NCBI GenBank assembly: GCA_905178155.1
Contig: CAJINV010000012.1
Location: 553,271 to 617,270, forward strand
Reading direction: 5' to 3'
DNA: 64,000 nt
Source of the DNA: Amoebophrya sp. A120
Taxonomy: Eukaryota; Protista; Dinoflagellata
Below the pieces are notes generated by a model. That model made no database searches. It was not told where the DNA came from and saw nothing but the letters and a program-made list of their open reading frames with translations. Shown here in pieces: positions 6,885 through 63,900 of this stretch (positions are counted from its first letter, which is position 1; every line of letters begins with the position of its first letter). The translations under genes were made by a program, and so were the position numbers.

Positions 6885-9800
6885 CTATACCAGCAGCTTT
6901 TTCTCCTCGGTTGAGAAACCCTGTATCGCTTTTTCGAAGCCATCCTCCCGGGCTTTTCTGTCGTTGTCCTCCTCGCTGCCGGTCTTGTCCTCGTCCCCTG
7001 CAGGTTGCAAGAAGGTCTTGTTCTGCAAGTCAACATTCTTTGCTTGGTAGTACTTGATCAGATCCTTGACGTCAAATTTCTTGGGCGTCTCATTGCTGGA
7101 TGAAAGAAGGGTGGGGTTGTTACTGTTTTGATCCAGGAACTTTTTCTGGTCGACACGGAACCCTTCAACATCCTCGGAGGTCGTTGTTGGAGCACAAATG
7201 GCCACCTTAGCGGCCTTACTGGTGCTCGCCGCGGCAGTGGTACTTCTAGATGATCCAATTGCCTGTTGTAGAAGTGGTTCCGGTCCCGTCTGAAGAGGAG
7301 GTTTTACTTGCTTGCCCGCAATACAAGCAGAGGACGAAGAACTTGTAGATGAAGAAACCTGTAATGCGCAATCTGAAACTACATGAAACATTGTCGCACG
7401 CATAGACGGCCAAAGCCAACAATTTTGAAGAAGCCAAATCTGACATAACAAGGCTAGCGATACAATACACTCGCATGCACATGTAGATCAAATGCATCAC
7501 CAAAAAATGCAAATGGATAAAACAAGGTCCAGGATCACGATGAGTTTCCTAAAACACTGGATAAATAAATACCAGTGCTGTATTTGCTGCGCGACCGCCA
7601 ACAACATTAGACGAGGAAGCCGAACTACTCGACGTCGCGCCCTGCAAACTCGTTTTTTGTACGTTGCACGACTTGGTAGCTCTTTTCGCATCGAGGCTGT
7701 CCGCAGCTCCTGCGGATGTAGAAGGTACCTGTTTTTTTGTTCGTGTCGATACCAATCATACGAGCCGCGAACTCGAGTTCATAATATTGAAGTGCCCATG
7801 ATCTGCCCAATTCTCGCACGAAGCACCAAATGGAAACATAGATTCCACAGTGGAAACAATTCTTCTTTCATCTTGTCCACAGGGAGTAATAAATAAGTAC
7901 CGTTGTTTTTGCTCTTCCCGCGCCTTTGACCTTTTTCAGGAGTTGATTCTCCTTGCCGCCAGCACTATCCTCTTCCGCTGCTGGTGCGTGCTTTTCATCC
8001 TTTTCCTTGTCCACCGCCGCCCGACCCCTCTTCGACGAACTCGCTGCGCTGCTCTCCGCGTTTGCACTGGCACTCTTCGCTGCCATCGCTCCTACCATCG
8101 AGCCTTCCAGGTCCGTGCTCGACTTTGTCTTTGACAAGGAGAAGAGTATACCGGACCCATGCGCATCTAGCAGTTTCTCGCCGTCCAAAACTTTCAACGA
8201 GGGGCAGGCCTGTTTTTCGTATATTTGGTGTTTGTTTTTCATTTTTGTTTTTCACTTCGAGAGGGCATCGAAAGCAACGCGCTTTTTTAAATCTAGTCAT
8301 GCACGGCAAATCTCACTGCGGACAGCAATTATACTGCAAGAATTTTCTCCCGCATCTCGGTTGGCTCCGGGCGGAGACGCAAGGGCATCAAGGGATAGTC
8401 GTTTCCCGTTATGCATCGCAATTGCGTCTGAGTCTGTACTAAAACAAAGGTATATTCTTAGTCTACATATTCCATGGAAAGTGGCTGGATCATCGCATAA
8501 GAACCAACAAACGCGCAGCTTCGTTTGTCATGCAAAGACGAAGCTTTTTGTTTTTCTTCTGTGCGCGGTGTGCACAGAAGAAGGCGCGACGCAATATGCT
8601 TGTCATGCTTAGCAGCTGCATTTGCTGGAGTGTTTTAAAAATCTTCCACAACCTCGTACGATCACAAGTTACAATTCCAGAACTACACTCAGACAGATTT
8701 TCACTTCCGTACCCTTGTAGAAGGTGTACCATTGCAGCGATCCCCTCGCCTCCAGTACTTCCAGCTGTGGCACCGCTGCGAGTCCCTCTTCGGCTTCGCG
8801 CAGCCCCAGATGTTCACTTCCCTGCACGCTCAAAGTTTTCAAATTCCGGAAGCAGTCGCTCGCGAGAAAATCCAGGTTTTTGATACCAGTGTTCTGCAAG
8901 GTCAGTACCTGTAGAATTTCTAGGTTCGGATTCCGTTTCATTGTTCATTTGACTGATATCTTCATGCTTATTCTCCGTGCAACATCAAGGTTACTTTTGA
9001 AGAGGTCGACCTTCAGTATGATGATGATCCTGCCATGATTCATTATTGCATTTGCGCGGCGCGACAATCTTTTTACATGAACCTTCACGGGCCAACAGGA
9101 ATTGACGAAAGAAGGTGAACCTCAAGAGACGAAGTCCCGCCCGGAAGCCCACAACTTCCGTCCACTGTTTCAAGTCCATCCAAAGCTTCACAATCCACGA
9201 TTCCCAGCTCCCGCAAGTTTGGGCACATCGAGAAGAGATCCTGGAGACCAGAGGATGGAATTGTGTATCAAATGCAAATGTCGTGTCTGGGTCTGGAAGA
9301 TTGGAAAACTTGTCATGCACATTTTGCACGACCCACGATGTAGTCCGTGATGTATGCGGTAGCATCACAGATTTTGTGAAGGCTTCCCGATGCCTATCCC
9401 GCATGAGAAATGCCCTAGGAAAAACAGGACTTCTCTTGCTGGTCATGCAATGCAGATGTTTTTAGAATCCAAGAACAGCATCACAAGTTGGATCCTTCCA
9501 GACCCAGACATATTTGCAGTTGATATTGTGTCGTTTGGAAAACACCAGTCGACGTCGTTAAAAACCAGTTTCGTGGTGGATTGCAGAACCGCATTGATTT
9601 GCTCTTCTCGCGAAAGCTGCTTTTTTGACTCCTGTTTGTCATCTCGGGTCGTGGATGATGATGATGATGATGATGAAGAGGTGGTGCTAGACTTGGAATT
9701 GGAGCTACTGCCTGTAGAAGTACCAGGCGAGGTGTTATTCGTGCTAGACGCGTTCGCGTTCTCCTCCTCCGCTGCTGCTCTCCTCTGGGGTAGTATGCAC

Positions 9801-13992: not shown

Positions 13993-16900
13993 TCAATGCT
14001 GAAACTCGTCTTCGTGTATCGGCGGCTGACAATCTTCCACCTTCGTCGGGTGATAGCCCGCAAACTCCGGTAGGTTCTTGCCCCACTCCGGTGCTTGGGA
14101 CAAGCCGCCCTGCATTTGGCGGTACCACTCTGGGGCGTCATTGTCGTAGTAGAGACCTGAGAATGAGATTGTCAGTATTTGCATTGCAATTATAGTAGAT
14201 ACAAAGGCATGACAACTGTAATCCAGAAAGCGCACAGTTCTACGCATGACACATTCCTTAAAACGCAACACAGAGTTTAGAAGCGACATCATGTTGAAGC
14301 TGCTCAAAAAAACAACTTCTGTACAGCCGCTGGGCATATCTACATTCCCCTCGCACGCAAACCGCTTCGCACTGGTGTACGTCAGCCCCGCGATTTTTCT
14401 TCTTCTGCAGCCGAGGTCGAAGTGCGTTCTCTCGTCTCCGGATAACTGCCGGAAAAACACGGAACAAACGTCCGCACGACACGTGCTGTGCATCGTGTTC
14501 ACCACCGGGTTTTGCCACACACAACGCCCCTGGACGCAGATGTATCCTGGTTTGTCACAGTTCACGTTTTGGCAGGCAATCTGCGCCTCCGTTTGCCCGC
14601 TGCCGCCGATTTTCTCCATCTTCGCGTGGGTGGCGTTTTGGTACTGAAAATGGAACCCGGGCCATTGCTTCTCTTGTTTCTCCACGTCATCGGTTTCTTT
14701 TTGTTTTTCATCGGTGGATTTCATGGGGATCGATCCTACCGGCTCCTCCTCCACCCCCTTGATGTTCCCGTCGGTTAAATACTTCTCGGTTTGCTTCTCC
14801 GTTAACTTCCTGATTTGCGGCGGTCCGGAGAAATTTTCGTACACGCCGACCCAGCCGTTTTCGGTCAACATGTAGATCTGCTTCCGGCGGTTGATCATTT
14901 TCATTGCATTCGTGATTTGCGGAAGAATTGGTGCGGTATTGACGGACGAGGAGAGGGTGGTCGACGTTGTTGGGGCTATTCTAGAAGTGGTGGATGATGA
15001 GCTTGTAGCAGCTCTGCCTTCTTCCAGCAGTGTGACTGGTTCTTCCTCCTCTGCTCGACCACCGGGGCCTGCTGCTGCCGCCATTTCCCCGGGTGGTCTA
15101 CTCCCAAGAGAGCCATCTCTTTCTCCTCTTGAACTCGCTTTCCGGAACATTTTCCCGAACAGTTTCGGCTCGGCTTTCGGGACATCGTTCCCTGCCTCAT
15201 CCACGACCGCGGTCACGACTTTTTATCAACTGCAAAAATGTCTGGGTCTGGAAGACTTTGACACCTTTCATGCACGTTTTGCATGAGCCATGATGTCTGT
15301 GATGCATACCCTAGCAATACAGAATTTTTGAGGGCTTCTTGATGTCTATTCCGCATGACAAATGCCTTCTCAGCGTAGCAAAAATTGCATTCTGGTTGCT
15401 ACTCATGCAATACAGATTTTTTTAGAATCCAAATACAGCATCACAAGTTGCATTCTTCCAGACCCAGACATTTTTGCAGTTCATACTTTCACGTCCTGCG
15501 CGACAAAAATCTCCCCCGGCTCCAAGCTTCTTTTCGTTGGTAGTTGCGCGATGAAGACTTTCAAGCCACAAATTGCCAGCGGTGCGGACTTCAACTCGGC
15601 GGAGCCCTCGTCGGTATTCCCTTGTTTCTTGATTTCGATTTCTCCGATTTCCCGCATAATAGAAATGTCCGTTCCATTCCCATCTCCTTCGAGTAAAGTT
15701 TTGATTCTATCTGGTTTCTGCTCGTAGAGTTCCTTGTCGAAGAAAATTCTCGCCGTATCTAAACCTTTCGGGAGCATCGGGTCATTCACCAGTCGTATTC
15801 TCGTTACAAACTTCTTCCCGCTCGTCAAGCTGATTTTCAAAGACTGCTCGTGCCGGAAACCAGTGCGGGAACAGATGGTTTTCAAAAATTCGTCCCCCGG
15901 CTGCTCTAACGGATTTTTAGTTGGAATCGCTGCTGCAGCGGACGATGAAAATTGGGCCAGCTTCGCCCGTTCCTTCGCAACTATCAAATCGCTCTGCAAC
16001 TGCGTGATGTTCGTGATTTTTGGCTCCTCCCCCTCCTCCTCCAGCAGATTCCCCGGTTTCATGTCCCCAACGAAGCTGGTTTGTTTCAGCTTCAACTCCT
16101 TCTTATGCTCCGCAAAAGCATCGCTCTCGTACCAATTGCATTACAGCATGACAAATCGGGTCTGTTACCTGAACCAGCATTACAAATGGCATTTTTCCTT
16201 CTGCAAAAATTTGTCATGCAATTTTTACGAGTGCGATAGTCTTGCAATCCATACTTTTTCGGCAGTTGCAAATCCCCCTCCGCCGTTTCCTTCCCTAGCG
16301 GCTTGCCCTTCTTTGGCTCGAGGTACGGAATGCCGGTGGTTTGGTCGTCGACTGGGGTCGAGTATGCATCGCAAAAGCACTCGTAGCAATCGCAATCATG
16401 CATTACAATTCTAGTTGTCAAGGCAAATTGCATATACAAATTCAATTTGTAATGACCAATGAGAAGCCAATTTGTATTGCAATTTCTACTAGTACGTGTA
16501 CGATACCCTTGCAATCCATATCCAGTAGCGTTTAATTAACGCCGGGACGGGGGAAGTTTTTTTCGGAAAAATCTGGTAGTAATTCGCTTGGCCGAGGATG
16601 GTCGGAAGGAATTCCGTTTTCGAAGCTAATTCCCTTTCGTAAATTGTTTCGACAAAATTCCCGGCTTTCTCGATCAGCGACACGCGGATGTTGCGCTGCT
16701 GTTTGATTCTGTTGGTTTTTGATGCTAGGGTTTGTTGTTCGGATTTTTCAGTTGCAGTTCTTCGGCTCTGTTCCGTGAGACCGGTTTTCACTACTTGGAA
16801 GCCGAGCTGCTCGCTTGTTTCGGGACCGTCCGGGGTGGGCGCGGTAGAAATTTTCGCATCGGAACCTGCGCCTGCTGCTACAGCTTGCGTCGATTGTTCA

Positions 16901-18980
16901 CCAGCATCACCATCCCCGAATCCAAACAGCGCTGCAATCGCCGCTGCATCTCCTTCAAATCCGGCTGCCGCGTATCACAAGAAAAAGTGTTCACGTCAAC
17001 GGTTTTCACAGATTGCAGTCATGCATCACAAATGTGGCCCAATATGCATGCTATGCATGACAAATTTCATTGGCGCGTTTAGTGATGCGCTGCTGTATTA
17101 CAAATTCCATTAAGGTTAACACTTTTTCCTCTGATAACGCGTCCCCTGGTTCAAAGCTCCCCACTGGCGGAACATACAAGCCGTAGTGCGACCTGGGTTT
17201 ACTCGACCGGTCAATCCACGCGAAAACGCCGGACTCGGGATGAAGCACCCGGATCCGCACGCAACTCTTGTCGCGCTTAACGCCCGGGGGTGGTGCTGGC
17301 GTTTTAGTGTCGGTTGTTGCTTGGTCCGCGTCTGTTGTGGCTTTTGCATCTTCCGACTTTGTATTCATTGCAAAAGTATCGCACTCGTATAAATGCATTA
17401 CAAATTTCCTCAGCATGAGAAATGAAATTTGTAATGCTGATTTGCTTTAACAAACAGATTTGTAATGCTCGACTGCAATACGAGTACGATACATTCGCAC
17501 AGGATACTTTGACGTTTTCGAATACGGGTAGTGGTTCACGAACAAGTCAAACACGCTGGTGAGAAAGGGGCTCGGGGTATCCCCTGAAAAGTAACCACCC
17601 CCATCCAGTTTGTCATGCAAAACATGTAGCAAGTTCTGTGTTTGTCATGCAAAAAGTGGATGGGGATGGTTAATGAATTTTCAGGAAATACGGGGGGCGG
17701 AGGTAGTCTTTGGCGAAGGCTGATAGGTGCTGTTCCACCGTCTTCCGCTGCCTGGGGACATTTAAACCGGACTGTCTTTTCACCGCTTCGTCTAAATCTT
17801 CCTTACTCATTCCGTCGAAGTTGGGATGATGCTCAGCACTTGTTGTCGTTCTTGTTTCCATCGCTTTATTATTATTTTCATTCCGCACTTCATCTTCGTG
17901 TTCTGCATGGTCTTCGGCTACGCTCCTGTCGCGGCCTGTACTCGTCTGAGCAGAGTTCACCTTCTCCCGGCGCCCCTGTATTCTCTTCATATCGGCTTGC
18001 CGCTTTTGGTTGTTCTTTTCACTCGCGATCTGACCGAGTGAAGCTGGCCGTGGGGCTGAAAGAGCTTGCTCATTGTTCCTATCACTTTTGGGTCTTTGCT
18101 GGAGTGCAGCGAGCAAACCAATGTTGTTACCCGCAGCCGCTGTTCCAGGCCCGACCTGATCATCGAGACAGTCCACTTGCAGCATGTTCTGCATTGCTTC
18201 GTCAGCGGCGGCTCCGTTCAAAGCCGCTAAGAGTGCCTGCATGTCCTTGTTGAGCAATAAGCGTTCAAAATCCCCGTCTTCTGCGACCGTCTTAATGAAG
18301 TCCGCAAAGGATTTCGGGTTTGGAAATTGCAAGTTGTCTGGCAAAAAGGAAACGCTGGTGTAGTTTCCCGCAAGCGTTTTCACAGCGTGATCATAGACGG
18401 CAAAATTCTTCGGAAGGATAGGCGGAGAGACCTCCCCTGTGACTGGGTCGGTCGTTTGTGTAGTGGAGTTGGTCAAAAACGCGATTACCATGCGGAGAAG
18501 TTCTGGTCCTCCAGAGGGTGGTGGCGCTGGGATTTTCCCTTTGTGCAGCTTTTTCTCCTCTTTTTTACTCCTTACCCGCTGCACGTACGTTTTCTGCCGA
18601 TTGCGGTTCAGCATTTGGAGGTTATTCTGGAGCTGTAGAAACGCAGCGGCAGCTGCTTTCGGTCCACTAGAATTCAAGTCGCTACCGCTGGCGCCATCTT
18701 CACTCCCGGCTGCTTGCTCTTTTTCCTCGGGCGGCATACTTGCGGTTTTATTTCTCGGAGCAGATGCTTTTGGTAGTAATGCGTGTGCTTCCAAGTACTC
18801 GATTGGTACATACCGGGTGTAGAACTCCAGCAAGTGACTCCGCTCCGCCTCCGAACTGGCGGCGAGAATCCCCTTCTGCAGAAAGTAGGACTGCACAAGC
18901 TGGGTCGGCATTTTCAGTGCTGTTGCTCCGTCTTCTGGTGCTAGATTCGTCGCCTTGCTCAAACTTGTACTGCACAACAA
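13993..18980 (-). CDS. Large hypothetical protein with Cys-rich C-terminal part, at least 7 exons; 5' end probably further upstream (~19550, hydrophobic segment)
   Basis: Six ORFs and an extra exon join into one frame after removing six TIR elements plus 5 bp each (RPP|SPF, TSK|SED, GDA|SAG, RYW|TPV, PKK|ELK, DVK|VVT). C-terminal CQNVNCDKPGYICVQGRCV. Confidence 0.8.
15224..15485. mobile_element. TIR introner, family A
   Basis: Ends TATCAACTGCAAAAATGTCTGGGTCTGGAAG ... CTTCCAGACCCAGACATTTTTGCAGTTCATA; flanks CTTTT/CTTTC; frame restored. Confidence 0.92.
16104..16253. mobile_element. TIR introner, family B
   Basis: Ends TATGCTCCGCAAAAGCATCGC ... GCGATAGTCTTGCAATCCATA; flanks CTTCT/CTTTT; frame restored. 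Confidence 0.88.
16363..16520. mobile_element. TIR introner, family B
   Basis: Ends TATGCATCGCAAAAG ... CCCTTGCAATCCATA; flanks TCGAG/TCCAG; frame restored. Confidence 0.85.
16973..17136. mobile_element. TIR introner, family C
   Basis: Ends TATCACAAGAAAAAGTGTT ... AACACTTTTTCCTCTGATA; flanks CCGCG/ACGCG; frame restored. Confidence 0.88.
17362..17506. mobile_element. TIR introner, family B
   Basis: Ends TATTCATTGCAAAAGTATCGCACTCGTAT ... ATACGAGTACGATACATTCGCACAGGATA; perfect CTTTG duplication; frame restored. Confidence 0.9.
17578..17690. mobile_element. TIR introner, family D (113 bp, the smallest)
   Basis: Ends TATCCCCTGAAAAGTAACCACCCCCATCCA ... TGGATGGGGATGGTTAATGAATTTTCAGGAAATA; perfect CGGGG duplication; frame restored. 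Confidence 0.88.
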
Positions 18981-20370
18981 GCCCAGGTCTGCTGTACCAA
19001 TGAAGACTTGCGAGTTCTCCGGCAGAAAGGACCGGATTTCGGGGCAGCCCTGGAGATTTTTTGTTTTTCAAAAATCAAGCAACATGCTGAAGAACAACTC
19101 CCGCGTTGCAGCGCAGTGTGGCAAACTAAATTCTTCAATCATGAGGACGAGGAGGCAGGAAACAAAAAAAAACGTTTTTTTTTTACTACATAACTGCCTT
19201 GTTCGTAAAAAATCCATACGTCCGTGAAATTTTCGTGCATTGCATCCGCCACGTGGAACGGTTGCCCAAAAAACGCGGATACGCTCCCCTGATGCGTGTC
19301 GTCCAGGGAATTCGGTTGTGCGGAGAGGGGAATGTGCAACTCCGGGTCTGGGGCGGTGAAGGGAGGGATTTTATTTTGCAGGGAGACACCGAGCACGGCC
19401 TGGGGGAACTGCAAAGCGGGGAAAAACGAAAAGGACTGGTAGATGAACAAGTTCCACATCAGCACTAACACGGTCGTCACGATTCCAAAGAAGCACCTCC
19501 GCAGCAAGAAGCTTTCTCGCAGAGAACCAGGTATAAAAGAGGACATCAAGTAGAAGAAGTCGTGCAAGTTGCTGCGTCTGCGGAGCAACATCACGGACCG
19601 CGCAGAGAAGGTGGCTCTTATCCGACGCGGCAACGCAAGCAGCCCTTTGGTCCTCTCCGGTAGAAGTACCTGCACCGCCACAGCTTTGGGACCAAAATGT
19701 TCGTGCTTCTGCCGGACCACATGATCGACGCTTCTTCGACGTTTTCCGCCCCGAAAGCAGAGTTGCTTACGCATATTTCCAACTTGATCTCGGTCCCTCC
19801 TGGCGCTCCCGTCGGCCGACGCTGTTGTCCGCTTGCTCTCCCTGCTCATTGGCATGGTTCTGTGCTCGAGCTCGCCTTGGTGTCGACGTCCGCATGGCAG
19901 CGGTAGTAGCCGCTGCAGCACTTTTTCAGAACATACACCGCGAGGACGCCGGAGAAACTCATCGCCCGGCCGCGCCGGCCTGGGCCGGCCGGACTTATCG
20001 TACTGCAACATGCAGCTTCCGCATCGTGCTAAAGTGGGTTCGTTGTACGCACTTTTGCGATCCTCCTAGATCTCGACATGTCATCTCTACGGTTACAGCG
20101 CTCTCTCACTACACTCTACTTCCTGACCACTCACTCGTCTCCCCCATGAATCTTCTCAACTCGCCTACTACTAGAGCAAACACCGAATTGAGCAGAACAC
20201 TTGATGTGTTGCATTTCGCGTAGCTGCAAACACGGCCCCACGACAGGTGGGTGTCGTTCTCGTTGTCCTGCTAGACTGGGTTCTTGAAGCTATTTTTCAC
20301 TTTTTCCATTTCATTTCGATGTTTTTCTGTTCATCATGTTGGTCATGGCTCCTGGCTGTTCAACATGTAG

Positions 20371-23475: not shown

Positions 23476-26400
23476 ATGTGGGACGTGGGACGAGCTCGGT
23501 CGTGAAGCATCAACGGGGGAAACCGTAAGAAAATCACTATGCATCTCTTGCGTGGTCCGCTGATGCTCGGCTTCTTGTGCGGCAGCATCTACTTCTACTT
23601 CTTCAAGCATTGAGCCCGCAGTTGCGGACGTCGTGTTGCGGACGTCGTGTGAGGGAACTGGAGGCCCCGGTGCAGCGGTTAACTCATCTAGTGGTACTTC
23701 CAGCAGATCGGGTAGGTCATCTAGTACTACTAATACTTGGCCCTGACCACGAACAGCTCGAAAAAGTTCCTGTTGCGCTGCCCGTGCAACAGCAACCAGA
23801 GCTTGTTCTTCAGTATGTTGATCTCGTCCATCTGCATCCCCGACTACACTTCTGGAAGAAGTTCTGCTACGCGAAGCAGAGTTTTTTCTTCCTCTGGATT
23901 TCCTACTCGAAGAGCGAGATCGTCGAGAAGAGGAGCTTGTTCTGCAAGGCGAATTTCTGCTTGCCGACCTTCCTCGCGGAGTAGGTGGGGTGGTTCTTAG
24001 GCGCACGCCATGTAGTTGATTTTGATCGCCACTGCTGCTCGCAGCTCCCCCACTGCTGATGCACCCTGTACCTGTTCCTTGGGCTTCTGGATCTTGAGCC
24101 GGGCGATGGATAAAGCTTGAGCTGCTTTGGCTCTGCTCCCGTGCTGCTGCTGCTGCTGCTCCCTGCTCCTGCTGCGCCATCGTAGCGTCACGACACTGCG
24201 TTTCGTCTTTCTGTATTCCCGGTTTCGGTTTTGCACTAATATTGTTGCGCCCCTGGGCGAAGAACTCCCGCGAAGGATATCCTCCCGGCGTCCATCCATT
24301 GTAGTTACGGTCCCTTTATGCATTGGAAATATGTTCTTTGGGTCTGGATTTATCGGATCATCTGGAAGACACCAAGATCTGTATTAATGCGTAAGTACGA
24401 CTCGACTACGATAGTTGGCCTCCAGCACATATTTTTATTTTGCCGTGCTGGATGAACATGAAGCCAGTTTGTGATGCGTTTTACGAATGAATCTGCAATA
24501 AGCCTCGCAGAGCAACTTTTGAAGATGCGGATGCAGTCATGCCGTACAGGCGGCCACTGTGCTGCAATCCAGGTATCAACAGCGAGGAAAGTACTAGAAG
24601 TTTCCAGACCCAGACATATTTGCATTGCATACCCCGGAGAGATACGCCATCGTTTGTTTTCTTCTTTCCAGAAAGGCCCGCTGCTCTTCTTGTTGGTGCT
24701 GCTCGGCAGCACCTGTACCGTTGCAAGGAGGTGTTGAGTCGGAAATAAAGAAGTCCTGCTGCTGCTCCTGGTGCCGGGCAGGCGCGCCAAAAAGGCCAGA
24801 AGAATCGGAAGAGCGCCTACGTGCAATCGTGTTTTTGTCAGGACCTTCTAAATCTAAGTAGTCACTCAGCCTCACGACCCTCACAACACTCGTATCGTTC
24901 CGGTCCGTGGAAGACTCGCTTCGACCGAGGCTGGTGCGCCGGGCTGCCGAATTGCTGCCAGACTCCACGGGGGTCCTCGAGAAATCTATTGTGGTCGAAG
25001 CGCTTGTGACGCCAGAATTTGGACCTTCTGAACCTTTATTGATCCTGCCAGGCTGATGCGGTAAGAAGACACGACCCGGGGGATATATAGGCGGAACCGA
25101 CCCCCCGTGAACCAGAGTACAGCCAGGACGAGCCGTTGGCACTGCACAATTGGGCGCTGGAATGGCCGTACTAGCAGTCGCTCCTGCTTCAGTCAAATGC
25201 GCCGGAAAATGTGGCACAGACACAGAGGCTGTTCCGGTATCATAGCGGCCAACAAGGTAATTACTTTCCGACCCCGGCGTTTTCTCCACCAACTCGCCGT
25301 TCCGCAGTACTCTGCTCGGCCGGCTGTGGGTCCGTTGATGTCCTCCCCCGTAGGGCCCTCGCCGCTGGAGCGGTTCCAGACCTTGTGTGTGTGTATGAAA
25401 TGGCGTGAATTGTGGACCTTGGTCTTGTCCGAATGGCGGCGTTCGTTCAGTGTCGCGGACCAGCTCGCGAACTCGATTAGGATTATGTAGAAGTGGACTG
25501 TTAAAACCGTCTGGCGTGTCTCCAAACAACGCCGGCAATGGCGAATGATCATCGAAATATCTTTTCGTCGGTGGTGGGGTTGTATACCTTGCGTGGTTCG
25601 TCTGAGAGGCACTTTCCTCCCGGCGTCCGTCAAGCTCAAGAACTTCCTTTTTCCCCCGGTCCGCCGCCAGAGGAGATTCGGTAGCAGGAGTTGGATTTTT
25701 ATTAACACGAGGGGATGTCGAACCACGAGCGCCCCCGCCGCGGCCCGTCACCAACGGATCACGATCTTCGACTTCTTGTCCAGCCTGGACCTGCGTTTGG
25801 CTTCGCAGAGCTGCCCGGGGGGTTTTTGTTGAAACGTCTTCGCTAAATTCCGCCTCGATTCGGCGCCACAACAGGTCGGCGATATTATATCGATTTTCAT
25901 CTTCTAGTTCTACTGACAGCAGCACCCCCGCCGCCAGATGCTGCATACCACCCGGGAGGAACTCCGGCTGTGCCACTGGTTCTTGACCTTCTTTAATATC
26001 CCTCGCTCCGCTACTTGAAGGAACGGAAGCACCACCGCACGCTGGAGCTGCGAAGCTCCGCCTCCAGGCCTCCAGCTGCCGATGGGCGGGCGACACCCGC
26101 AGCTGCCCGTTCATGATGAATGAATCCGAGCGAAACTGCCCGTTTGCGTCTCCTTGCCGGAAGACTTCCTTCACGCTACGAAGAGAGCCGCAGAGGTGAT
26201 CCGCAACGGTGGTTCCGTATTGTTCCAGCAAAATAGAAGGCGACAGGGTATGATGTTGGCTCAGTTTTTTCAAAAATTCGCGAGAGTAAGAGAGCAAGAT
26301 TTGATGTCGTGGTCCCTGCTGTTCCGCATAATTCTTCATATCTTCGCGGTGAAGTTGATTGCAGTAAAGCTCTCGGTTCTCGTACGCGCGCCGAAAGAAG

Positions 26401-27223
26401 GTCAAAATCTCCTTTCGGGTTAGAAACTGCTCCTCCGGGCTGCGAGACGAAAAAGGCACAAAGTCCGGGTCCTGCCGTGAAAGCCGGGGGTGGCGATCCA
26501 GCTTATTTCCCACACGCCGCTTGGAAGTGATATGAACAGCCACCAGACGTCGCATGAGCAGCTCCTGTTGTAGCTCTTGAGTCGTACGTTGGTCAACATC
26601 TACTGTGGCCGCGTCACCGCTGGTAAGAAATTCCAAAAGATCTCGCTCGGTACCGCACACATTCTCCCTTGCAAACCGGATACCGTTATCAACAGCCCAG
26701 CCTGCCTGAGCGTCTATTTTAATTTCTTGCGACCTCGTCGTGCGCACGGCTGCTTGACGCTGCTGCTGTACTTCTGCATCACGATAACTACGCAATAGAA
26801 CGGCAATTTCGGGCTCAGACTTTACAGCTCCTGCAGACCACGGGCAGCTGGCAGCGAGTGCTATGGAACTGTCAGGATTGAAATTAACAAAGTTGAAATA
26901 ATTTGTGATGCATAAAATCTATACCAGTGAGTTGGACCCACAGTTTCCAATCGGCGCATGACAAATTTTCCTGGCCTCTGAAGCAAGTCTGTCATGCTGT
27001 TTAGGGCAAGACTGCTGCTCCCTGTCATGCTAGTCAGCAGCCCAATTCTTGACCCTTACCAGCACTAGAATCTGCCTCCCTTGCGCCTTCAGCAATAGAG
27101 TCAGTCTTTGTGTCGCATTTTATGCATGGCAAATCATCTCAACTTTGTCGATTTCAACTCTGACACATCCATAAGTGCTGCGACTACGCTAAGCAGCGGC
27201 ACCGCAGACTGAGAATAAACCAT
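23353..27223 (-). CDS. Putative secreted protein, 3 exons (27223-27174, 26856-24632, 24311-23353); paralog of 29066-31687
   Basis: Removing two TIR elements gives one frame starting with signal-peptide-like MVYSQSAVPLLSVVAALAASCPWSAGA and joining YLSG|DRNYNG into ORF 23353-24180. Confidence 0.8.
24317..24631. mobile_element. TIR introner, family A (degenerate)
   Basis: Ends TATGCATTGGAAATATGTTCTTTGGGTCTGGA ... TCCAGACCCAGACATATTTGCATTGCATA; flanks CCCTT/CCCCG; frame restored. Confidence 0.85.
26862..27173. mobile_element. TIR introner, family E (~57-bp TIRs)
   Basis: TATGGAACTGTCAGGATTGAAATTAACAAAGTTGAAATAATTTGTGATGCATAAAAT with an imperfect inverted copy at the right end; perfect AGTGC duplication; frame restored inside the signal peptide. 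Confidence 0.9.
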
Positions 27224-37685: not shown

Positions 37686-37922
37686 TATGGCGTTCTCAAA
37701 TGTTACATTCTCAACTGTTGCATGGATTTGTAATGCAAGAACAGCAACAGTGAAAGTGGCAACGTTGCAACTTTCGCATCACAGATTTTGCACAGAGTAT
37801 CATGCTGTTTAGCCCTTCGAAAATTTGTCATGCTAAGCACCTTGATCAAGTGGAGGGTAATGGCAATTTTGCATGACAAATTCATGTAACAGTATGAGAA
37901 TGTAACGTTTGAGAACGCCATA
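37686..37922. mobile_element. TIR introner, family F (copy carried by tandem duplication)
   Basis: ~50-bp TIR starting TATGGCGTTCTCAAA(T/C)GTTACATTCTCA; perfect CGAAT duplication. Confidence 0.92.
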
Positions 37923-46507: not shown

Positions 46508-46759
46508 TATCAAATGTAAAAGTGTCTGGGTCTGGAAGAGTCATGCTGTTTTTGCATGACACATAAGGCCTGGCATGGAAGCTCTAGCATCACAGGTCTC
46601 GAGAAGCTTCCGCAATGCCGAATCCGCATTACAAATCCCCCATTTTGGTGACAGAAAGTGGGCAGCTTTTGCTACCTATGCATGAGAGATTTTTCTGTGT
46701 TCTGAAATGCGCATCACAAGTTTGTATTCTTCCAGACCCAGACATTTTTGCATTTGATA
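46508..46759. mobile_element. TIR introner, family A; host gene unresolved
   Basis: Ends TATCAAATGTAAAAGTGTCTGGGTCTGGAAGA ... TCTTCCAGACCCAGACATTTTTGCATTTGATA; perfect ACTCG duplication. Confidence 0.92.
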
Positions 46760-46821
46760 ACTCGCGTACGCCGAATGGAAAAATCCACAACGTTTTCATC
46801 TGCGCGCACTGTCTTCCGCTA

Positions 46822-47141
46822 TATCAAAAAGAAAAATCCCCCCTCCCCATATCGAAAACGTATCCGTCTGAAAATTTGTGATGCGCATTTGTGACCTCAA
46901 ATCCTGCCTGTCTTGCAAGAGGGCAAGTCCAGAAAGCGTTCCGCATTTTTCAGGCGGTTTGTGATGCTGTTTGGCTCAGAGCATACACGTTTGTCATGCT
47001 AGGCGCCTACGTCAAACCTCTCGGCTGAGGCTTGCCACATGCGTGCACTCCTCTACTGCAAGACAAATCTGATTTGTGTATGGAAATCCAGCATCAGAAA
47101 CTTCGTTTCGATATGGGGAGGGGGCATTTTTCCTCATGATA
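46822..47141. mobile_element. TIR introner, family G; host gene unresolved
   Basis: Ends TATCAAAAAGAAAAATCCCCCTCCCCATATCGAAA ... TTTCGATATGGGGAGGGGGCATTTTTCCTCATGATA; perfect CGCTA duplication. Confidence 0.9.
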
Positions 47142-47851: not shown

Positions 47852-49564
47852 CTACGCAAAAACCACTCCAAGCTCCTTACACCACTTCTTCATCATTTCC
47901 TCTGAAGCCATCCGCCCACCGCACACCTCGACTACTACATCCCCGCCTTCTTGCAAGATGTCACTGAACGCCGTGATGTCGTGTATTTTCAATTTGCACT
48001 CGTCTGTGCTGTCAGTACTACTGGAACAGCGGATGATGTCTAAAGTCGTTCTTTCACGTCCTTCCTCATCTGTCTTCTTCAAACCAGCCAAGTCCTCCTC
48101 TTCCGTGTCGATCAGCGCTAACGCCGCTCCGCAGGCAGGCTCGACTAGTGGAATCGGACAAAGTTTCTTGCTTCTTGTTTCTCCACCTTCTTCTTCCATC
48201 ACAACCTGTGGCACTCTTTTCCGAAACAGCATCGCCGCCTTGACTGCCGCGTGATCGGTGACACGAAAAGAGTACACGTTGGACGAGTGATCTTTATCAC
48301 CAGCCACTTTCCGGTAGAGTTTTTCGCAATTCAAACTACCTAAAGACTTCGCAACCGAGGTGATTGCCTTGAGCGTCACCGGTTTTTTCTCCAAACAGGA
48401 CTGATAAAAGCAGTCCGCGCCGACCGTCTCGCCGATGAAAAGCTTTACACCTTTTTGTTTCTTGTGTTTCTCCAACCCGTGCAAAATCCCGGTCGCTAAG
48501 CCGCCCCCTCCGCACGCCGTGATGATCGCTTTCAAATTTTCTCCTTTTCCCGGGAGTTGCTCCAAGATTTCGTCGACTACGGAACTGTGGCCCTCGTACA
48601 GGTTGTCGCCCTCAAAGGGGTGGATGTACTTGAGCTTTTGCATATTTACTTGCTGGACGCGAATCGTGGTGCCACCAGCCCGCGTTTCATGCGCAGAAGA
48701 TTCCGTTTTGACGTTTTCAGATTCCCTTACTAACCGTAACGCCTCCTCATTCGCCTCGTTCCAGACGTTGCCGAATATTCTGATTTCCACGTCCGGATTA
48801 TGCATTGCAAAAGTATCGCACTACGTGCAAATAGCATGACAAATTGCCTAAAAATGAAAAATGCAATTTGTCATTCGGATTTAACTTCAGAATGTGATTT
48901 TTATTGCATGTTGCCTACGATGACTACGAGTACGATGGTTTTGCGCCGCATACGGGTTCACCTCGAGCAGTTTCGGCCTCGCGATGTCGATCGGCGTGGT
49001 CTTCGGTAGAATGATCGTGCAGCCCAAATTGTACTGGTAACACGCGTAGGCGCAGGCGAGCCCCGCGTTGCCGCCGGACGAACAGACGCAACCGGTGCAA
49101 CTTTCCTCATACTTCGCCTTCTGCACGGTCAGCCCGATCCCGCGGATCTTGAAAGACCCGGAAGGCTGTAGTGCGTCGAGCTTGTAGTAGATTTGCAAAA
49201 ATGCGGGTGGTGGGCTGGTGGCTTCGTTGTGGCGGCTGGAGGTGTCGTCGTGTCTCTTCAGAAAAATCTTGTGACCCAGCACAAGCGGGGTTTTCTTGTG
49301 GCAGCTGGACGACGGAAGTAGAGTTGCATCATGAGGACGCGTTCCCTTGATGTCCTCGCTGGTAGAAGAGGTAACCTTCTTCTTCTTTGTCAGTTCCTCG
49401 GTTGAAGCATCGATAGCCACCTGAGAGTCCACTAGTTCTGTAGCTTTTGCTTTGCCTTTGCTCGGACTCCGGCTGCGCTTCAGGGAAGGGCTTTGCCCAA
49501 CGACATCGGTGCTGGAAGCGGCGCCGTGGGAAACAGGCAAGGATGGAGAGGTCGGAGGAGACAT
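47852..49564 (-). CDS. SDS: L-serine/threonine dehydratase, PLP fold type II, SDS/CHA1-like (exons 49564-48953, 48793-47852)
   Basis: KLDALQPSGSFKIRGIG (PLP lysine), SSGGNAGLA, YIHPF, CGGGGL, EPACGAALA and VCGG. Halves join as EVNP|DVEIRIFG. Confidence 0.92.
48799..48952. mobile_element. TIR introner, family B, in the dehydratase gene
   Basis: Ends TATGCATTGCAAAAGTATCGCACT ... AGTACGATGGTTTTGCGCCGCATA; flanks CGGAT/CGGGT; frame restored. Confidence 0.92.
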
Positions 49565-50199
49565 TCTGTCGGGTTCTTAAGCGCAAATGAGAATGATCTT
49601 CCAGAGGTTTTTTCTCCGCTACGTAGAACGAAGCCACAAGCAAGGCTAATAAAGAAGCAAGGTCCGCCCGGACGGAATCTAACAGATAGAGTAAATCACT
49701 CAAAAACTGCGCGTTGGCGTTGGGTTTGGCTTGGTAAAATGTTGCGGGTAGATGATGTAGAAGACACGAAGGTCAATACTATTGGGCGTCATCCATTTGA
49801 TCCCGGTACTCATGCAGTTCTCTGGGAGGGCAGATGGGCTTAACAAATGCAGACTATTCAACTAGGACATCACTTCATCTTCAACGAGAGACAGCGAGTA
49901 TCTATGTTTTGTTGTAGTCTTCGCCCAAAAATAAAATTGCAGATCGAGATGGCAAACCACGTCGCAAATGGAAGCGACGCGGTAGAGATCTTCATCTCCA
50001 GCTTGAGAGCGCTGTCCCCGTGACAAAGAAAATTCTCCATACACTAAAAGAGACATCGACACAGCAGCAAAAAGATGCTACCCAGTGTCGCTTGCTTGGT
50101 GACGAAACGCAAACAACACATCGAGACGGAGCCACAACGGCAGCCCCCGACGCTGGCTGTCTCTTCTCATTTGGTGGTGCAACACGACGCAAATTCATG

Positions 50200-52386: not shown

Positions 52387-52428
52387 ATACAATGATGAAC
52401 ATCAAAATTTCACAGACCTCCATCCCAC

Positions 52429-55400
52429 CTAAAACTGCAACTCCAACGCTTGCACCTCCGCCGTTTTAGTGATCAGCCTTTTCACGGTACTGTTGAAGTA
52501 CTCCACGTCTGGACTATCGTGCTTCGTTGGCGCCCCGTCGAGGTTAAACATGTAGTAGAAAAATCCGTCCAAATCGTGCACGCCCGGCAACGCCTTGATC
52601 ACATCCTTCCCACTAGCTTTGTTGAAGAAGTTGACGAACAAGATTAATTGCTGCGGTTGTTCATCTTGTTCCTGATCGTAGTCTGCGGAGTTGGTTGTAG
52701 AAGCGTCAACATTTTTGCCAGACCCCGAAGCGGTGGACTTCAAAATCGGATTCAATTGTCCCCGGTTTGCGAGTTTCTTCGCCTTTGCAAGCTTCTTCGC
52801 TTTCTCCTCTTCTTCTTTCTCGGTGGTGCTGTTTGTGTTTGTCGTGTTGGTCGAAGACGCTGATGCATTCGTGTCGTTGATGACGTACGTTTCGGACGTT
52901 GTATTGTTCGTTGCAGCGACTACATGGGGACTGGACGAGTTGAGCGAGCGCGAAGCTGTTGTATCTTCAGAAAAATTTGTTATCCCGTTTTCAACAGCAT
53001 CTAACCCTTCCCCCATCTCAAACTCTTCATCCGGCCTCAACGGTCTCTCCGGCGCCACCCACTCCTCGTGATTCAAAAACAAAGCGGTGTCATTGATCGC
53101 TTCGAGTTGCGCCATTCTGTTGGTTTCAATAGAGTTGCCAACATTATTTTCATTCGTAGAACTACTGCTCTGCGTCTGCCCCCCACCTGCTCCGCCATTT
53201 GTCACTATCCCGACATCCTGCACGAAGAATTGCACGTCGATGAAGGGAGAGAGTTCGAAAATTTTCTTCTTCGCCTTGATGATCGGGCGTTTCCAGGCAG
53301 TCACGAACCGGTCCAGAGCGACTTTGACCGCGTGTTGGAAGATGAAGGCGTCCTTGTTCTGTCTTTTCAATTTCTGTATCAAAAGTAAAAATGTCTGGGT
53401 CTGGAAGAATGCAACTTGTCATGCTGTTTTTGGATTCTAAAAAAATTAGTGTTGCATGACCAGCAAGAAAGGTCCAGTCTGTGCTACGCGGAGAGGGCAT
53501 TTCTCATGCGGAAGGCGCATCAGGAAGCCCTCTAAAAGTCTGTGATGCTAGGTCATGCATTACAGGCATCAGGGTTCATGAGAAATATGCATGACAAGTC
53601 TGCATTCACTTCCAGACCCAGACATTTTTACAATCCATATTCTGCTTCAAGTCGTGGGGGTGGATGAAACCCGGATGGGTCAATGGGTCGTATCCATACG
53701 TGCCGTAAAAATCCCCGCCGCCCCCACCATTTCGCTCAAATAGATACGCGAACCGGAAAAGGAGGAGTTCTAGATAGTCGAAGTTTTCCCCGTCCAGGAT
53801 GATTTGGAACAGGTCCTCCACAGATTTCGCGTTCAAAACGTCCTGGACCATACTGTACGGGTTGTTCAAATATCCTCTGCAAAAGTATCGCACTATCCTA
53901 GTGATCGCAGTCACGCATTCCTTTCTCATGGTAAACCCGCATGACAAACTTCATTTCTCATGCTGAGGGAATTATTTGTTATGCGATTTCTACTAGTACG
54001 ATACTTTTCCTTTTGCGATGCATATGAAAACCTGCACAAACTTCTTCAGGTCCTGCCTTAACCCGAACTTCTTCCGCTGAAAAACCAGGTCCTTTGTGAG
54101 AGACTCGCAGCCAAATTTGTTGCTGCACCAGTCGATCAGGTTGTACAGTGTCTGGATCCCGCGTCGGTATTTGAAGAAGGAAACGCTGGATTTGGTTTGG
54201 TGGATAGCATATTGATGAAAAGACGAACGCTGGCCACCTCGTCTTGAAGAAGACGAACTACTTGAGGAACTCGCTATACCATCATGCGTATGCTCGATCT
54301 CGCTCCGGTCTTTCGACACCGTCGGCTGTTTCCTCTGCGATTTGAAAATTTTCAGTTCCCGGAAAAACTCCTTGTCTTGCTTCGTTGTAGCCAGAGCTGT
54401 TTTGCCAGGCATTGTCGAGAGAAGTCTCTCATGCTCCGCGTCTACGTCGTCTTTATCCGTGTCTTTTTCATCCATGAGCTGCTCCTCGGTTTTGGTGATG
54501 TCCAGCTCTATCGCCATGGCGTCGTGCTCAGGCTCTCCACTTGTTGTACCGTCACCACTGTTTGATGGTGAAAACTCCACGAGAATTTCCTCGGTCAACC
54601 ACCGATCAAGTATGGTTGTGTTCGTCGTTCTTGGGGGGATATGAACCTCGGAAATCGTCGGCTGGAGGTGGTGATGTTGGAGATGTGCGACTCCTGTAGT
54701 TCCTGTACCCACCTTTATTGCAGCAGCAGGAGTTGTGGATGACGAAGGCTCTGTGTTGCTTTTGATTTTGTCTTGCTGCGATTTCAAGTCAGTTGTTGAT
54801 GTGTCATCTGCAGTTGATCTGGAAAAAGTTTGACCTTGTTCCTTGATGTCCTCTGCAGCATCATCCTCAAAGTGCCACTCATGCACCCTCCAACCGAACA
54901 GGTCCCGGAAAAACAACACCACCGCAGTGGTAGAGGAGGGCGCGAGGTTGAAAATTTTCCGGAGCGAGGTGATCAAAACTTTTTCAAAGCCGTGCTGCAA
55001 CCACGACGGATTACGTCTGGCTTTGTGTCTCGATGATCTCGTGGTCCTGTCAGAGGTGGTTGTTGTTCCGCGACTTTTATATGGCGCTGCATCAAAGTAC
55101 ACCGTGCTCTGCAAACCCTGCAGCCCGGCGCGCGCTCCACCGGCACCTGGCACGGTGCTTTTTCTTTCAGAACTACTGTCTGTGGTAGGCAATGTACTTC
55201 TCAGAGGGGGCGTCGATGGGGCAGCTTCGGCATGCGCCGCCTGTTCATCATCATCTCCCCTGGTGCTGGTGTAATAGTTTTCTGCACGATTTTGATTTTC
55301 AACTCTCGCCCGACCAACACACGAAGCCTTCACCCCTCGGCTCCTACTGCCAACCTCCGGAAGATCTACTGAGTTCCCCACCGAATTCGAGATCTTCACG

Positions 55401-58760: not shown

Positions 58761-58979
58761 CAGAAAGGCTTTTGAAAATGATCTCAGTTTCCGCGCTGCA
58801 ATGCGGTATGATCTTATTCTTGCGCCGACAATCGCAGTCGGTTCTGGGAGCGGCAAAACAAAAATCAGAAGAGCGAAATTGCCCCAGACAGGCCTGAGCG
58901 GCGGCCCCAATCAACACGATTATCAATAGAATGAGCAACTGAACTTAAGACACCACGCCAAGCAACGAACCTTACCTAA

Positions 58980-60956: not shown

Positions 60957-63900
60957 TCAAGTTCCCCGCACCACGGGGGTGCAGTTGGAGCTGGTCGCCG
61001 CTTCCGAGGACGAGTACCGCAGCGAGTCCTCGGGCATTTTCTCCCCGTCTATTTCCTTCTGGGCCATCCAGACCGCCGTCTGCCACTCCACCGACTCGCC
61101 GATATTGACCTTAGATAGGAGTTTGATTTGAGGTTGATATGATAGCACAATTTCTTCAAGAAGATGTCCACGCATGTCAAAAAGCCTGTGCGACATCAAA
61201 CGAAAGAAAGACAAGTTTAGAAAGTTGCAATGAAGAACTTCATGAAGACCATCTAATACCACTTTCGCTCCGAAATCACGCGACGCGGGCGGCACGATGA
61301 AAGCAGGACCGTTTCCGCTTGCGCCCCCCGTCCCTCCACCGCCAACGACATTCGCTATCTCTTGGCTGAGCGAATTCGCGTTGGAGCTATTTGTATTGCT
61401 GTTTTGGTGCCCCAGCTGCCGTTCCTGCTCTACGCCACCGGCCAAGGCTCCAAGTGTCGCGTTGTGACTACGAATTCTCGCTCTTGGATTTACACCGTGC
61501 TGTCGGGGGAAATTTGGCGGCTGCGGTTTGATCACTCGGTGTTGGTGTGACGATGCGACAATCTGCTCCCCAGTCTTGCGACAGGTGGTGCGGTGGTGCT
61601 GGTGTTGTGAGGACTTGTGATTGTTGTTGTTCGAGGCTGCACTCGCTGCAGTTCCCACACTATCGGCGTTGAAAGTCAATTTCTGATTCGCGATTTTCAT
61701 GATCTGCTTGTGGTTCGTCGTGGTACGGGCGCTGGAGTAGTTGTGCTGGGAATTATGGCTCTTTGCTGCAGCAGCTTTGTCACGCGACAAGCCGTTGTCT
61801 TTGTCCCGCTCTCCCCGAGCAGTCAGCATCTGCCCCGCTTGTTTTGCTGTGGACGAGGTGGAGTTGTTGCTCATACCATTCTCGCGACTGCTCCAGCCGT
61901 TCGCCTCCTTGATGTGGTTCCCCGAGCAGTTTACGGACCTAGGATTGCCTCCTCCACCGCTATTTGGGCCTGTGCTTGTCCCTCCATTTGTCGTCCCGTT
62001 GTTGTAAATCTCATTCGTACCGGCCAAATTTTGCTGGAACTTGGGGAAATTTACCGCGGCCCGATTAGGATTTCGTGCCGTCCGCGTGGCGCTGCCCGAT
62101 GGCCGGGTGGAAATCGCGAAACTGTGGTTGGACTGGTGAAAGTTTTCCCCGCTGGCGGCCTTTTGACGAGCAGAGGGAATAGCACCAGTCATCGAGTTCT
62201 TGCTGGATGGTGCAGCAGAAGTCGTGAAAGCGATGGTAGACGCCACGACAGGTGCTGGGCGACGCTCTTCCTGCTCGCGGTCTGCACTATGTTCGTGTAT
62301 TCCACCACCAGTCGCGGCAGAAGAAGTTGCAGCACTTTCATCCTTCAGCAAACTCGCCGCAGCCGTGGCGAGAAAAGAGTCGTTTCTGGCTGCCGGCGCG
62401 GTTTTTGTGAACTTCTGTGAGGAAAACAAGTTCTGCTTGTTGAAAATCGCAGGCATCTTGTCCACCACGCCGGGTTCGTCACGGTGATTTGCGGCTGCAT
62501 CAACGCAACTTTCTCCGTCAACAGTAGCCACAAGTTCTTGCGCCCGATCTTGAACCAAGTCGGAGGTCAGGAGAGGAAGAGTCGCTCTTATTCCTCCTGG
62601 AAGATCACCCTGAAGATGAACATGTGCCTGCCTCTCGTTTTGCACCACAGCGCTCGTGGTCGTCCCGCTCGTTTTGCAATCCACCACATTCACACCACTG
62701 CCGTGTTCGATCTCAGGCAACAAGATACCGGAACACACTGGCTCTGCGCCAGTGGGTATCAAATGTAAAAATGTCTGGGTCTGGAAGATTTCGAGATTTG
62801 TCATGCCTATTTGCCATGATCGATGATGTCTGTGATGCATGCCGTAGCATCACAGATTTTTGGAGCGCTTTGTGATACCTCTACCGCATGAGAAATGCCT
62901 TCTCCGCGTAGCACAAACTGGAGTCCTCTTGCTGTTCATGCAATACAAATTTTTTCAGAATCCACAGACAGCATCACAAGTTTACAATGTTCCAGACCCA
63001 GACATTTTTGCATTTGATAGCGGGCTGGCTGTGATCTTCCGCTTGTGAGTATGTTGTTGCGTCTTTTCCTCTATCACCTTGATTTATTTCCGAATCTGTT
63101 TTAGTATTCCCTCCTGGCGGTTGTCCAACAGCAACTCCGTTGCTGGCATTCGAAAACGATTTGTTCAGATTCAGCTTCTATCAAGTGTAAAAATGTCTGG
63201 GTCTGGAAACTTGTGATGCCGGGCGGCGTCTCATGATGAGGCTACAAATGCTGGCTCAGCATGACAAGTTTCTGAGCTCCTAGGTGTTGCCTATTCTGCA
63301 TGACAAACTGCGCTTCTGCATCACAGAAAAGCGCAGCTCTTGGGGAACGTGCATGACAGATTTAAGAGCCATGCCAGACAAGCATGACAAACATGAATTC
63401 TTCCAGACCCAGACATTTTTACAGTTGATAGCTTCGTGTTGGAGCTCGCACGCAAACTCGAGCTGCAACGGTTGAGGAAGCTGCTGAACATCCCTGCTAT
63501 GCGGTTGCTGCTGCGATTCAAAGTCGGCATTGGCGGTTGTTGCTGCTCGGAGGAACTGCCTTCTGCCGATTCTACTTCTTCTTCGCAGCTGCTGTTATCG
63601 GCTCGTTCACAGGCGGCCTGCTTGTTCCCGTTCTCTACCATGAAGTCAGGCGGCGATTCCGGGCTGCTGACAGTCTGGGCATTCATCTCAGGAAAATCCT
63701 GCTGACAGTGCCCCTTGCAGCTCAAATCCGTGTTTTTTTCGTCACAGCTGCTCGACCCGCTTTCTTCGCCTAGTTGGGTCGAACTGGAGCTAGCACCGCT
63801 CATGAACCGCAGGAAAGAAAAAGACGAGCTCATCTTGTGCCGCGGAATCGTCGGGCTCGGGGATCCGGACGTTTGCGGCCGAACTAAAGTGGTGCCCAGA

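What the first reader, a model, noticed from the sequence alone, without database searches (positions are those of the whole stretch)
9266..63019. Orientation-independent intron behaviour
Seen: all host genes are on the minus strand, yet family A copy 53377-53639 is inverted relative to 9266, 15224 and 62757. Family B copies 16104 and 53871 are inverted relative to 17362 and 48799; 16104 and 17362 lie in the same gene. Both orientations restore the frame by the same rule. Known: spliceosomal signals are directional. Inference: recognition is symmetric, for example a TIR stem in pre-mRNA bringing the direct repeats together.
Basis: partly seen in the sequence, partly recalled or inferred. Interest (0 to 1): 0.8.

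Follow-up and report, generated by a model that had tools for sequence, protein, structure and literature searches.

The report
Parasite transposon introns spliced either way
In a marine parasitic dinoflagellate, small transposon-like inserts are cut cleanly out of transcript assemblies whichever way round they sit in a gene, likely because their two ends mirror each other and fold together; the inserts are already described, but this two-way behaviour and the likely cut position narrow down an unexplained form of splicing.

Summary
Observation confirmed. The window is Amoebophrya sp. A120. The repeats are its published introner elements (PMC7789003): TAT...ATA inverted ends flanked by a 5-bp direct repeat. 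RNA-like contigs of one sample skip element+5 nt at all 5 elements laid, in both orientations of both families. In a second assembly, family A sits 41 versus 48 and family B 9 versus 12 relative to the inferred gene strand, and 63 of 66 callable insertions obey the same frame rule. No GT-AG register or strand-specific branch motif was found. Splicing is not fully symmetric: mismatched repeats put the 5' cut 0-1 nt before the stem and the 3' cut 4-5 nt after it, following the transcript (3 informative junctions). The stem folds on both strands but shows no covariation, so pairing as the signal is inferred. The hairpin model is already published, and either-orientation introners are known in other algae. 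The scan noted similar hairpin-bounded introns in other genomes (unchecked). Lariat versus circle was not testable.

The parts
9266..9525 (.). Family A introner, reference orientation; 5-bp direct repeat identical on both sides
   Evidence: no RNA laid here
15224..15485 (.). Family A introner, reference orientation; repeat with one mismatch
   Evidence: no RNA laid here
46508..46759 (.). Family A (divergent subfamily), reference orientation, outside long ORFs
53377..53639 (.). Family A introner, inverted; skipped with 5 nt (joint 53371-53640) in 3 of 4 runs
62757..63019 (.). Family A introner, reference orientation; skipped with 5 nt in 3 of 4 runs; mRNA keeps the transcript-upstream repeat copy at position 4
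63179..63430 (.). Family A (divergent subfamily), reference orientation; skipped with 5 nt in 3 of 4 runs (tool flags 'between: not known')
2764..2922 (.). Family B, oriented like 17362; repeat with two mismatches
3014..3168 (.). Family B, inverted relative to 2764, 91 nt away
16104..16253 (.). Family B introner, inverted relative to 17362, same gene
   Evidence: no RNA laid here
16363..16520 (.). Family B introner, oriented like 16104; upstream repeat copy gives a Trp shared with the homologue
17362..17506 (.). Family B introner, reference orientation
   Evidence: no RNA laid here
48799..48952 (.). Family B introner, reference orientation, splitting a PALP enzyme; skipped with 5 nt in 4 of 4 runs
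53871..54024 (.). Family B introner, inverted; skipped with 5 nt in 3 of 4 runs; mRNA keeps the upstream repeat copy at position 4
16973..17136 (.). Other TAT...ATA element in the six-element gene
17578..17690 (.). Other TAT...ATA element (113 nt) in the six-element gene
24317..24631 (.). TAT...ATA element with degenerate family-A-like ends; removal with 5 nt joins a 1182-codon ORF
26862..27173 (.). Other TAT...ATA element, 312 nt
37686..37922 (.). 237-nt element, copied with tandem duplication at 39214-39450 and 42940-43176
46822..47141 (.). Other TAT...ATA element, 320 nt, outside long ORFs
13996..19067 (-). Host reading frame, 1350 codons after removal of six elements
47855..49576 (-). Host gene, PALP (serine dehydratase-like) enzyme, identical to annotated Amoebophrya sp. 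A120 protein P0001
52432..57760 (-). Host reading frame, 1634 codons after removal of 53377 and 53871; single contigs cross both joints
60960..63998 (-). Host reading frame with two family A elements and one GT-AG intron
61110..61259 (-). 150-nt intron readable as GT...AG on minus, skipped in 3 of 4 runs; internal control for strand and for the runs being RNA

Best explanation
These are transposon-like introner elements of Amoebophrya that sit in genes in either orientation and are absent, with exactly one 5-base repeat's worth of flank, from RNA-like assemblies, likely because their mirror-image ends fold into the same terminal stem either way and a splicing machine likely cuts at a set distance from it. 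Steps: (1) inferred: a DNA transposase inserts a non-coding element without regard to strand and duplicates 5 bp of target; (2) shown: the element has inverted TAT...ATA ends, so the transcript starts and ends with the same motif in both orientations; (3) predicted: the arms pair into a 20-30 bp stem; (4) shown at 5 junctions: element+5 nt is removed and the original reading frame returns; (5) shown at 2 junctions and compatible at a third: the 5' cut lies 0-1 nt before the stem (one junction also allows -1) and the 3' cut 4-5 nt after it, so polarity comes from the transcript; (6) inferred, least certain: the catalyst is a retooled U2-type spliceosome in which stem recognition replaces U1 and the GT/AG checks.
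For: RNA-like contigs skip 48799 (4 of 4 runs), 53377, 53871, 62757 and 63179 (3 of 4 each); two contigs (X1 record 2, X4 record 19) cross both inverted elements. In X1 and X4 the depth in bin 48602-49152 equals that of the spliced contig alone (5.93 vs 5.93; 7.95 vs 7.97), so no unspliced form is assembled there. Annotated P0001 and two homologues are contiguous across 48799 with no added residue. Second assembly: 63 of 66 insertions with frames callable on both flanks keep one repeat copy (69 of 78 and 67 of 69 at other settings; 263 elements had flanks); orientation 41:48 (A) and 9:12 (B), P 0.53 and 0.66. Direct repeats have no sequence preference and only 17 of 206 elements allow GY-AG in any register. 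TAT is not invariant (14 of 852 sites changed; 4 at 5' ends, 4 at 3' ends in 91 oriented copies) and 2 changed copies lie in long restored ORFs, which fits structure better than a strict motif. Stem predicted on the transcript strand for 11 of 11 elements folded (mean arm pairing 0.62-0.96). U2, U4, U5, U6 and 83 of 89 spliceosome proteins are reported in A120, U1 is not (PMC7789003 section 10). Euglena non-conventional introns have a paired motif with a 3-nt 5' spacer and a 5-6-nt 3' spacer (PMC12501133 abstract).
Against: No comparative sign that pairing is selected: in 88 family A copies the variable arm positions 4-11 match 5.94 times against 5.86 in shuffles (P 0.24), G-U versus A-C mismatches are 85:76 (182:155 over all 206), and the arm duplex is no stronger on the transcript strand (100 vs 92, P 0.24). 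These tests have little power when the stem is long anyway. Arms differ from consensus at 1.4-1.6% of sites against 3.3% between repeat copies, which is no excess conservation if both repeat copies mutate. The cut position rests on 3 informative junctions from one sample, assembled contigs, RNA by guess and unstranded. No evidence here on the catalyst or on the excised product. The strand calls in the second assembly come from a codon model trained on this window, without RNA.
Confidence: 0.5

Rival explanations
1. The mirrored terminal sequence is read as sequence, by a protein or snRNA at each end; the hairpin is a by-product of transposon inverted repeats. An N-TAT start would keep the U+2 and A+3 of an ordinary 5' splice site.
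For: Both arms follow the same consensus independently, without covariation or G-U excess. A 1-nt 5' overhang, allowed at all 5 junctions, puts T at +2 and A at +3; that these positions match ordinary donors is recalled knowledge. Either-orientation introners in Polarella and Aureococcus carry splice sites in their ends.
Against: TAT changes occur at both ends, also in ORF-restoring copies. Families A, B and the others share little beyond TAT(C/G)...AAA. The 3' end lies in a repeat of free sequence, so it cannot be a motif. No pull towards G at +1 or -1 (GT 67 vs 64 on the opposite strand).
Confidence: 0.25
2. A non-spliceosomal endonuclease-ligase pathway recognises the stem and releases a full-length circle or linear intron, as proposed for euglenid non-conventional introns.
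For: No GT-AG register and no branch motif tied to the transcript strand; U1 not detected; similar short-5', long-3' spacer geometry in Euglena, where excised introns are reported circular without lariats.
Against: A nearly complete spliceosome is reported; in Fritillaria the U2 spliceosome removes non-canonical transposon introns. No back-going joint appears, but contigs drop rare forms, so this is not a test.
Confidence: 0.2
3. The junctions are not RNA splicing: either reverse transcriptase jumps across the hairpin between the direct repeats, or the element is excised from DNA in some nuclei.
For: Stem plus direct repeat is the recalled signature of template switching. The runs are RNA only by guess. 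The joint table of the DNA-like run was cut (423 rows hidden).
Against: The PALP enzyme and four long ORFs need the removal. No unspliced form is assembled at 48799 in X1 and X4. Three joints keep a mismatched base in one consistent direction. DNA-like contigs run from exon into the element ends at single-copy depth of about 43. The same contigs skip a GT-AG intron and give no cover in spacers.
Confidence: 0.04

Closest known systems
Introner elements (IEs) of Amoebophrya sp. A120 (Farhat et al. 2021, PMC7789003; saw abstract, sections 10-12 and 16, word-search passages, supplement legends; figures not visible)
   Same: Same organism; inverted ends starting TAT, seven variable bases, then AAA; 3-5 nt direct repeats; no splice dinucleotide; hairpin model; co-oriented gene blocks.
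   Different: Nothing in kind. The text searched does not address element orientation ('strand' 0 hits; the 'orientation' passages shown concern genes) and leaves the border position unknown (Fig. 3 legend); here both orientations are shown skipped and the cut is narrowed.
Either-orientation introners of Polarella glacialis and Aureococcus anophagefferens (bioRxiv 10.1101/2020.10.14.339549; saw passages; the Aureococcus paper itself was not available)
   Same: Transposon-derived introns with target duplications, some classes creating introns in either orientation.
   Different: They use GT/GC/GA and AG sites from the element or the duplication, and the classes named there showed a bias to one orientation; here no dinucleotide rule and no detectable bias.
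Euglenid non-conventional introns (PMC12501133 abstract, section 7, passages; PMC6221363 passages; review PMC11282704 section 6)
   Same: Inverted terminal repeats, non-canonical ends, repeat-like borders, short 5' and longer 3' spacer around the paired motif.
   Different: Euglena needs a CAG/CTG-type motif, 3 and 5-6 nt spacers and a purine at the exon start; here TAT/ATA, 0-1 and 4-5 nt, free flanks. Circular products are reported there and untested here.
Non-canonical transposon introns of Fritillaria borealis (review PMC11282704 section 6; bioRxiv 10.1101/2025.08.15.670264 passages)
   Same: [quoted passage not shown]
   Different: Preferred AG-AC/AG-AT ends and shown U2-spliceosome dependence; neither shown here.

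Membership tests
Amoebophrya A120 introner elements | Occurs in Amoebophrya sp. A120 | tested here: met
   PALP exon 100% identical over 313 aa to a protein named Amoebophrya sp. A120
Amoebophrya A120 introner elements | Inverted repeat at the ends starting TAT, seven variable bases, then AAA | tested here: met
Amoebophrya A120 introner elements | Direct repeat of 3-5 nt at the borders | tested here: met
   5 bp; 120 of 142 family A copies found by core only have identical repeats, no extension to 6-7
Amoebophrya A120 introner elements | Repeated intron, removed from RNA, non-canonical ends | tested here: met
   5 of 5 laid elements skipped; none has a GT-AG register
MITE (non-autonomous TIR DNA transposon) | Short, non-coding, TIRs, target duplication, many copies, both orientations | tested here: met
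MITE (non-autonomous TIR DNA transposon) | Cognate autonomous element with transposase and the same ends | tested here: inconclusive
   None among 8 pairings over 400 nt in window and loci, longest ORF 154 codons; whole genome not held
Canonical U2 spliceosomal intron | GT/GC...AG ends | tested here: not met
   17 of 206 in any register; 0 of 5 RNA-tested
Canonical U2 spliceosomal intron | Branch-point motif near the 3' end on the transcript strand | tested here: not met
   YTRAY in 3 of 95 family A copies on the transcript strand vs 8 on the opposite; 5 vs 5 of 28 family B
Canonical U2 spliceosomal intron | Lariat intermediate, snRNP dependence | not testable with these tools
   needs raw intron RNA or knock-down
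Euglenid non-conventional intron | CDG/CHG paired motif at +4..6 and purine at exon start | tested here: not met
   ends are TAT/ATA and flanks have free composition
Euglenid non-conventional intron | Excised as full-length circle | not testable with these tools
   only assembled contigs mapped; raw runs X9 and X10 did not map outside repeats

The most novel reading that the evidence does not exclude
Amoebophrya has a sequence-blind splicing route that finds any long terminal stem in a pre-mRNA, cuts 0-1 nt before it and 4-5 nt after it, and so undoes a 5-bp-duplicating transposon insertion exactly, in either orientation and at any target sequence, without U1, GT/AG or a branch motif, possibly without the spliceosome.
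Probability: 0.25. Interest if true: 0.8.

Novelty: already known. Interest (0 to 1): 0.42.

Why it matters
How Amoebophrya removes tens of thousands of non-canonical introns is an open question in the genome paper. Orientation independence rules out any signal in the element's interior, and the polar cut gives a precise, testable geometry. It also explains why these transposons spread so freely: every insertion, either way round, can be neutralised. The elements and the hairpin idea are published, and mirrored ends make two-way splicing an expected result, so the gain is a sharper constraint and a gene-annotation rule (remove element plus downstream repeat), not a new system.

Tried and rejected
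No whole genome held, so no genome-wide count in A120 itself. No run is on record as an RNA holder; X1-X4 are RNA by guess. Two protein searches for annotated models of the two long genes found nothing; the representative search gave 1 homologue only. A 4th-order codon model was too sparse (17-22 locus calls) and was replaced by a 2nd-order one. The motif GCATNACAA (48 of 54 hits inside elements) was considered as a branch site and rejected as such: its position and strand follow the element, not the transcript. Repeat mismatches lean to transcript positions 1-2 (22) over 4-5 (11), P 0.08, not used. 10002-10068 and 20747-20889 are weak candidates and were not counted. Rfam: 0 matches. No autonomous element. 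Literature: 7 searches and word searches in PMC7789003 with its supplement text, PMC12130899, PMC9860276 and PMC11453091 found no statement that Amoebophrya introners are spliced in both orientations; PMC9860276 allows opposite-orientation copies in its method. Supplementary figures S19-S25 of PMC7789003 and the datasets of the two PNAS papers were not seen and may show it. PMC5684705 was not held. PMC8469720 seen as abstract only; not the same system.
Full report
Identity. A minus-strand exon at 47855-48793 is 100% identical to a protein labelled Amoebophrya sp. A120. This matches the published A120 introner elements: inverted repeats starting TAT, seven variable bases and AAA, direct repeats of 3-5 nt, a hairpin model, and genes in co-oriented blocks (PMC7789003). 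The one-strand gene layout is therefore ordinary for this organism.

Orientation. Aligning interiors only, 53377 is inverted against 9266, 15224 and 62757 (192-239 vs 3-17), and 16104 and 53871 are inverted against 17362 and 48799 (38-57 vs 0-15). Further copies: family A 46508 and 63179 (reference orientation), family B 2764 (like 17362), 3014 and 16363 (like 16104). In the window that gives A 5:1 and B 3:4. A strict scan finds 17 elements against 0 in 3 of 3 shuffles.

Frame. Removing element+5 nt gives a 1350-codon ORF across six elements, and ORFs of 1634, 1182, 838 and 521 codons. The annotated protein P0001 reads through 48799 in this way and two homologues have no extra residue there. 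A homologue aligns in order along the 1350-codon product. 9266 is less decisive by ORF length and is supported by the codon model.

RNA. Contigs of four runs of one sample, RNA by guess, were laid on 47500-64000 at 99% likeness. All 5 elements in that stretch are skipped with 5 extra bases: 48799 in 4 of 4 runs, 53377, 53871, 62757 and 63179 in 3 of 4. That covers both orientations of both families; two contigs cross both inverted elements. The same contigs skip a 150-nt intron readable as GT-AG on minus and give no cover at 50255-51356 and 57969-59070, as RNA should. At 48799 the bin depth in X1 and X4 is what the spliced contig alone gives. A DNA-like run carries exon-element junctions at single-copy depth.

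Where the cut falls. Where the two repeat copies differ, the contig shows which is kept. At 53871 (B inverted) the intron can start only 0-1 nt before TAT and end 5-4 nt after ATA; at 62757 (A reference) -1 to 1 nt before; at 48799 (B reference) 0-3 nt before. 53377 and 63179 are uninformative. A cut tied to the element's own polarity would keep opposite copies at 48799 and 53871; both keep the transcript-upstream copy. A centred cut is excluded at two junctions. At 16363 the upstream copy gives a Trp that the homologue shares (inference). So recognition of the element is orientation-blind but the reaction is directional. The genome paper leaves the border position unknown. Three junctions are few.

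Larger sample. They hold 288 distinct elements. With coding frames scored on both flanks, 63 of 66 callable cases keep one repeat copy (69 of 78 and 67 of 69 at other settings). In 72 of 143 loci with a strand call (187 elements, 45 of them without clear orientation), family A is 41:48 and family B 9:12. Of 14 cases with two or more oriented copies of one family in one restored ORF, 5 hold both orientations (some rows overlap). Loci were chosen by a family A end, and strands are inferred.

Signals. The direct repeats have the composition of coding sequence; only 17 of 206 elements allow GY-AG in any register; YTRAY is rare and not tied to the transcript strand. TAT is common but not invariant, with changes at both ends. 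A terminal stem is predicted on the transcript strand for 11 of 11 folded elements and on the opposite strand too, weakest for 16363 (0.40). Against the stem as a selected signal: no covariation of variable arm positions, no G-U excess, no extra stability on the transcript strand.

Mechanism. Most likely the mirrored ends pair, and a machine cuts at the stem base on the 5' side and one repeat length beyond on the 3' side, restoring the pre-insertion mRNA. Removal in both orientations is shown (about 0.95); pairing as the signal and the spliceosome as catalyst are inferred (0.5 together). Rivals: mirrored sequence read without pairing (0.25), a non-spliceosomal route with circles as in euglenids (0.2), artefact or DNA excision (0.04).

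Comparison. The elements are members of the published A120 introner class. Either-orientation intron creation is reported for Polarella and Aureococcus, with ordinary splice sites and an orientation bias. Euglena non-conventional introns work most alike (paired ends, 3 and 5-6 nt spacers) but the defining motif is not met. I found no statement in print on orientation for Amoebophrya, but supplementary figures and datasets were not visible. Earlier notes of this scan describe similar introns in other genomes; I did not check them.

Verdict. Real, confirmed in RNA-like data, part of a known system; the orientation independence and the polar cut are useful, apparently unstated constraints on an open mechanism. 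Interest 0.42.

Noticed in passing
window 36200-43200: Tandem 1528-bp duplications of a gene segment, three carrying the same 237-nt element with the same direct repeat: duplication after insertion, not transposition.
   Followed up: partly
window 61110-61259: The GT-AG intron begins G-TAT, the same register as a 1-nt overhang before an element's TAT, and its last bases are partly complementary to its first; the fold does not pair its ends. Possibly an old element, possibly chance.
   Followed up: partly
window 51700-52390: Multi-copy repeat directly beyond the 3' end of the 52432 gene, very deep in the DNA-like run and shared by reads of the raw RNA runs; no TAT...ATA ends detected.
   Followed up: no
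window about 12000-14000, 50000-52000, 58000-60000: GC-rich (0.61-0.63) stretches between genes; the latter two contain bins without RNA-like cover.
   Followed up: no
all element families in the window: The motif GCATNACAA recurs on both strands inside unrelated families (48 of 54 hits in 7% of the window); a candidate shared transposase-binding site (inference).
   Followed up: partly
window 46508-46759 and 46822-47141: Two elements 62 nt apart outside long ORFs, between the methyltransferase and PALP genes; splicing not determined. L074 has the same two families adjacent at different target sites.
   Followed up: partly
L062:4014-4985, L041:3094-3724, L040:571-1051: Long family A copies (481-972 nt) with extra internal sequence and intact ends, possibly nested insertions.
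   Followed up: partly
window 43139-45853: DREV/METTL9-like methyltransferase ORF of 905 codons with long low-complexity insertions (the METTL9 name is recalled).
   Followed up: no
window 666-2446, 20365-22694, 34507-34836: Other direct duplications (about 1200, 1540 and 165 bp spacing).
   Followed up: no
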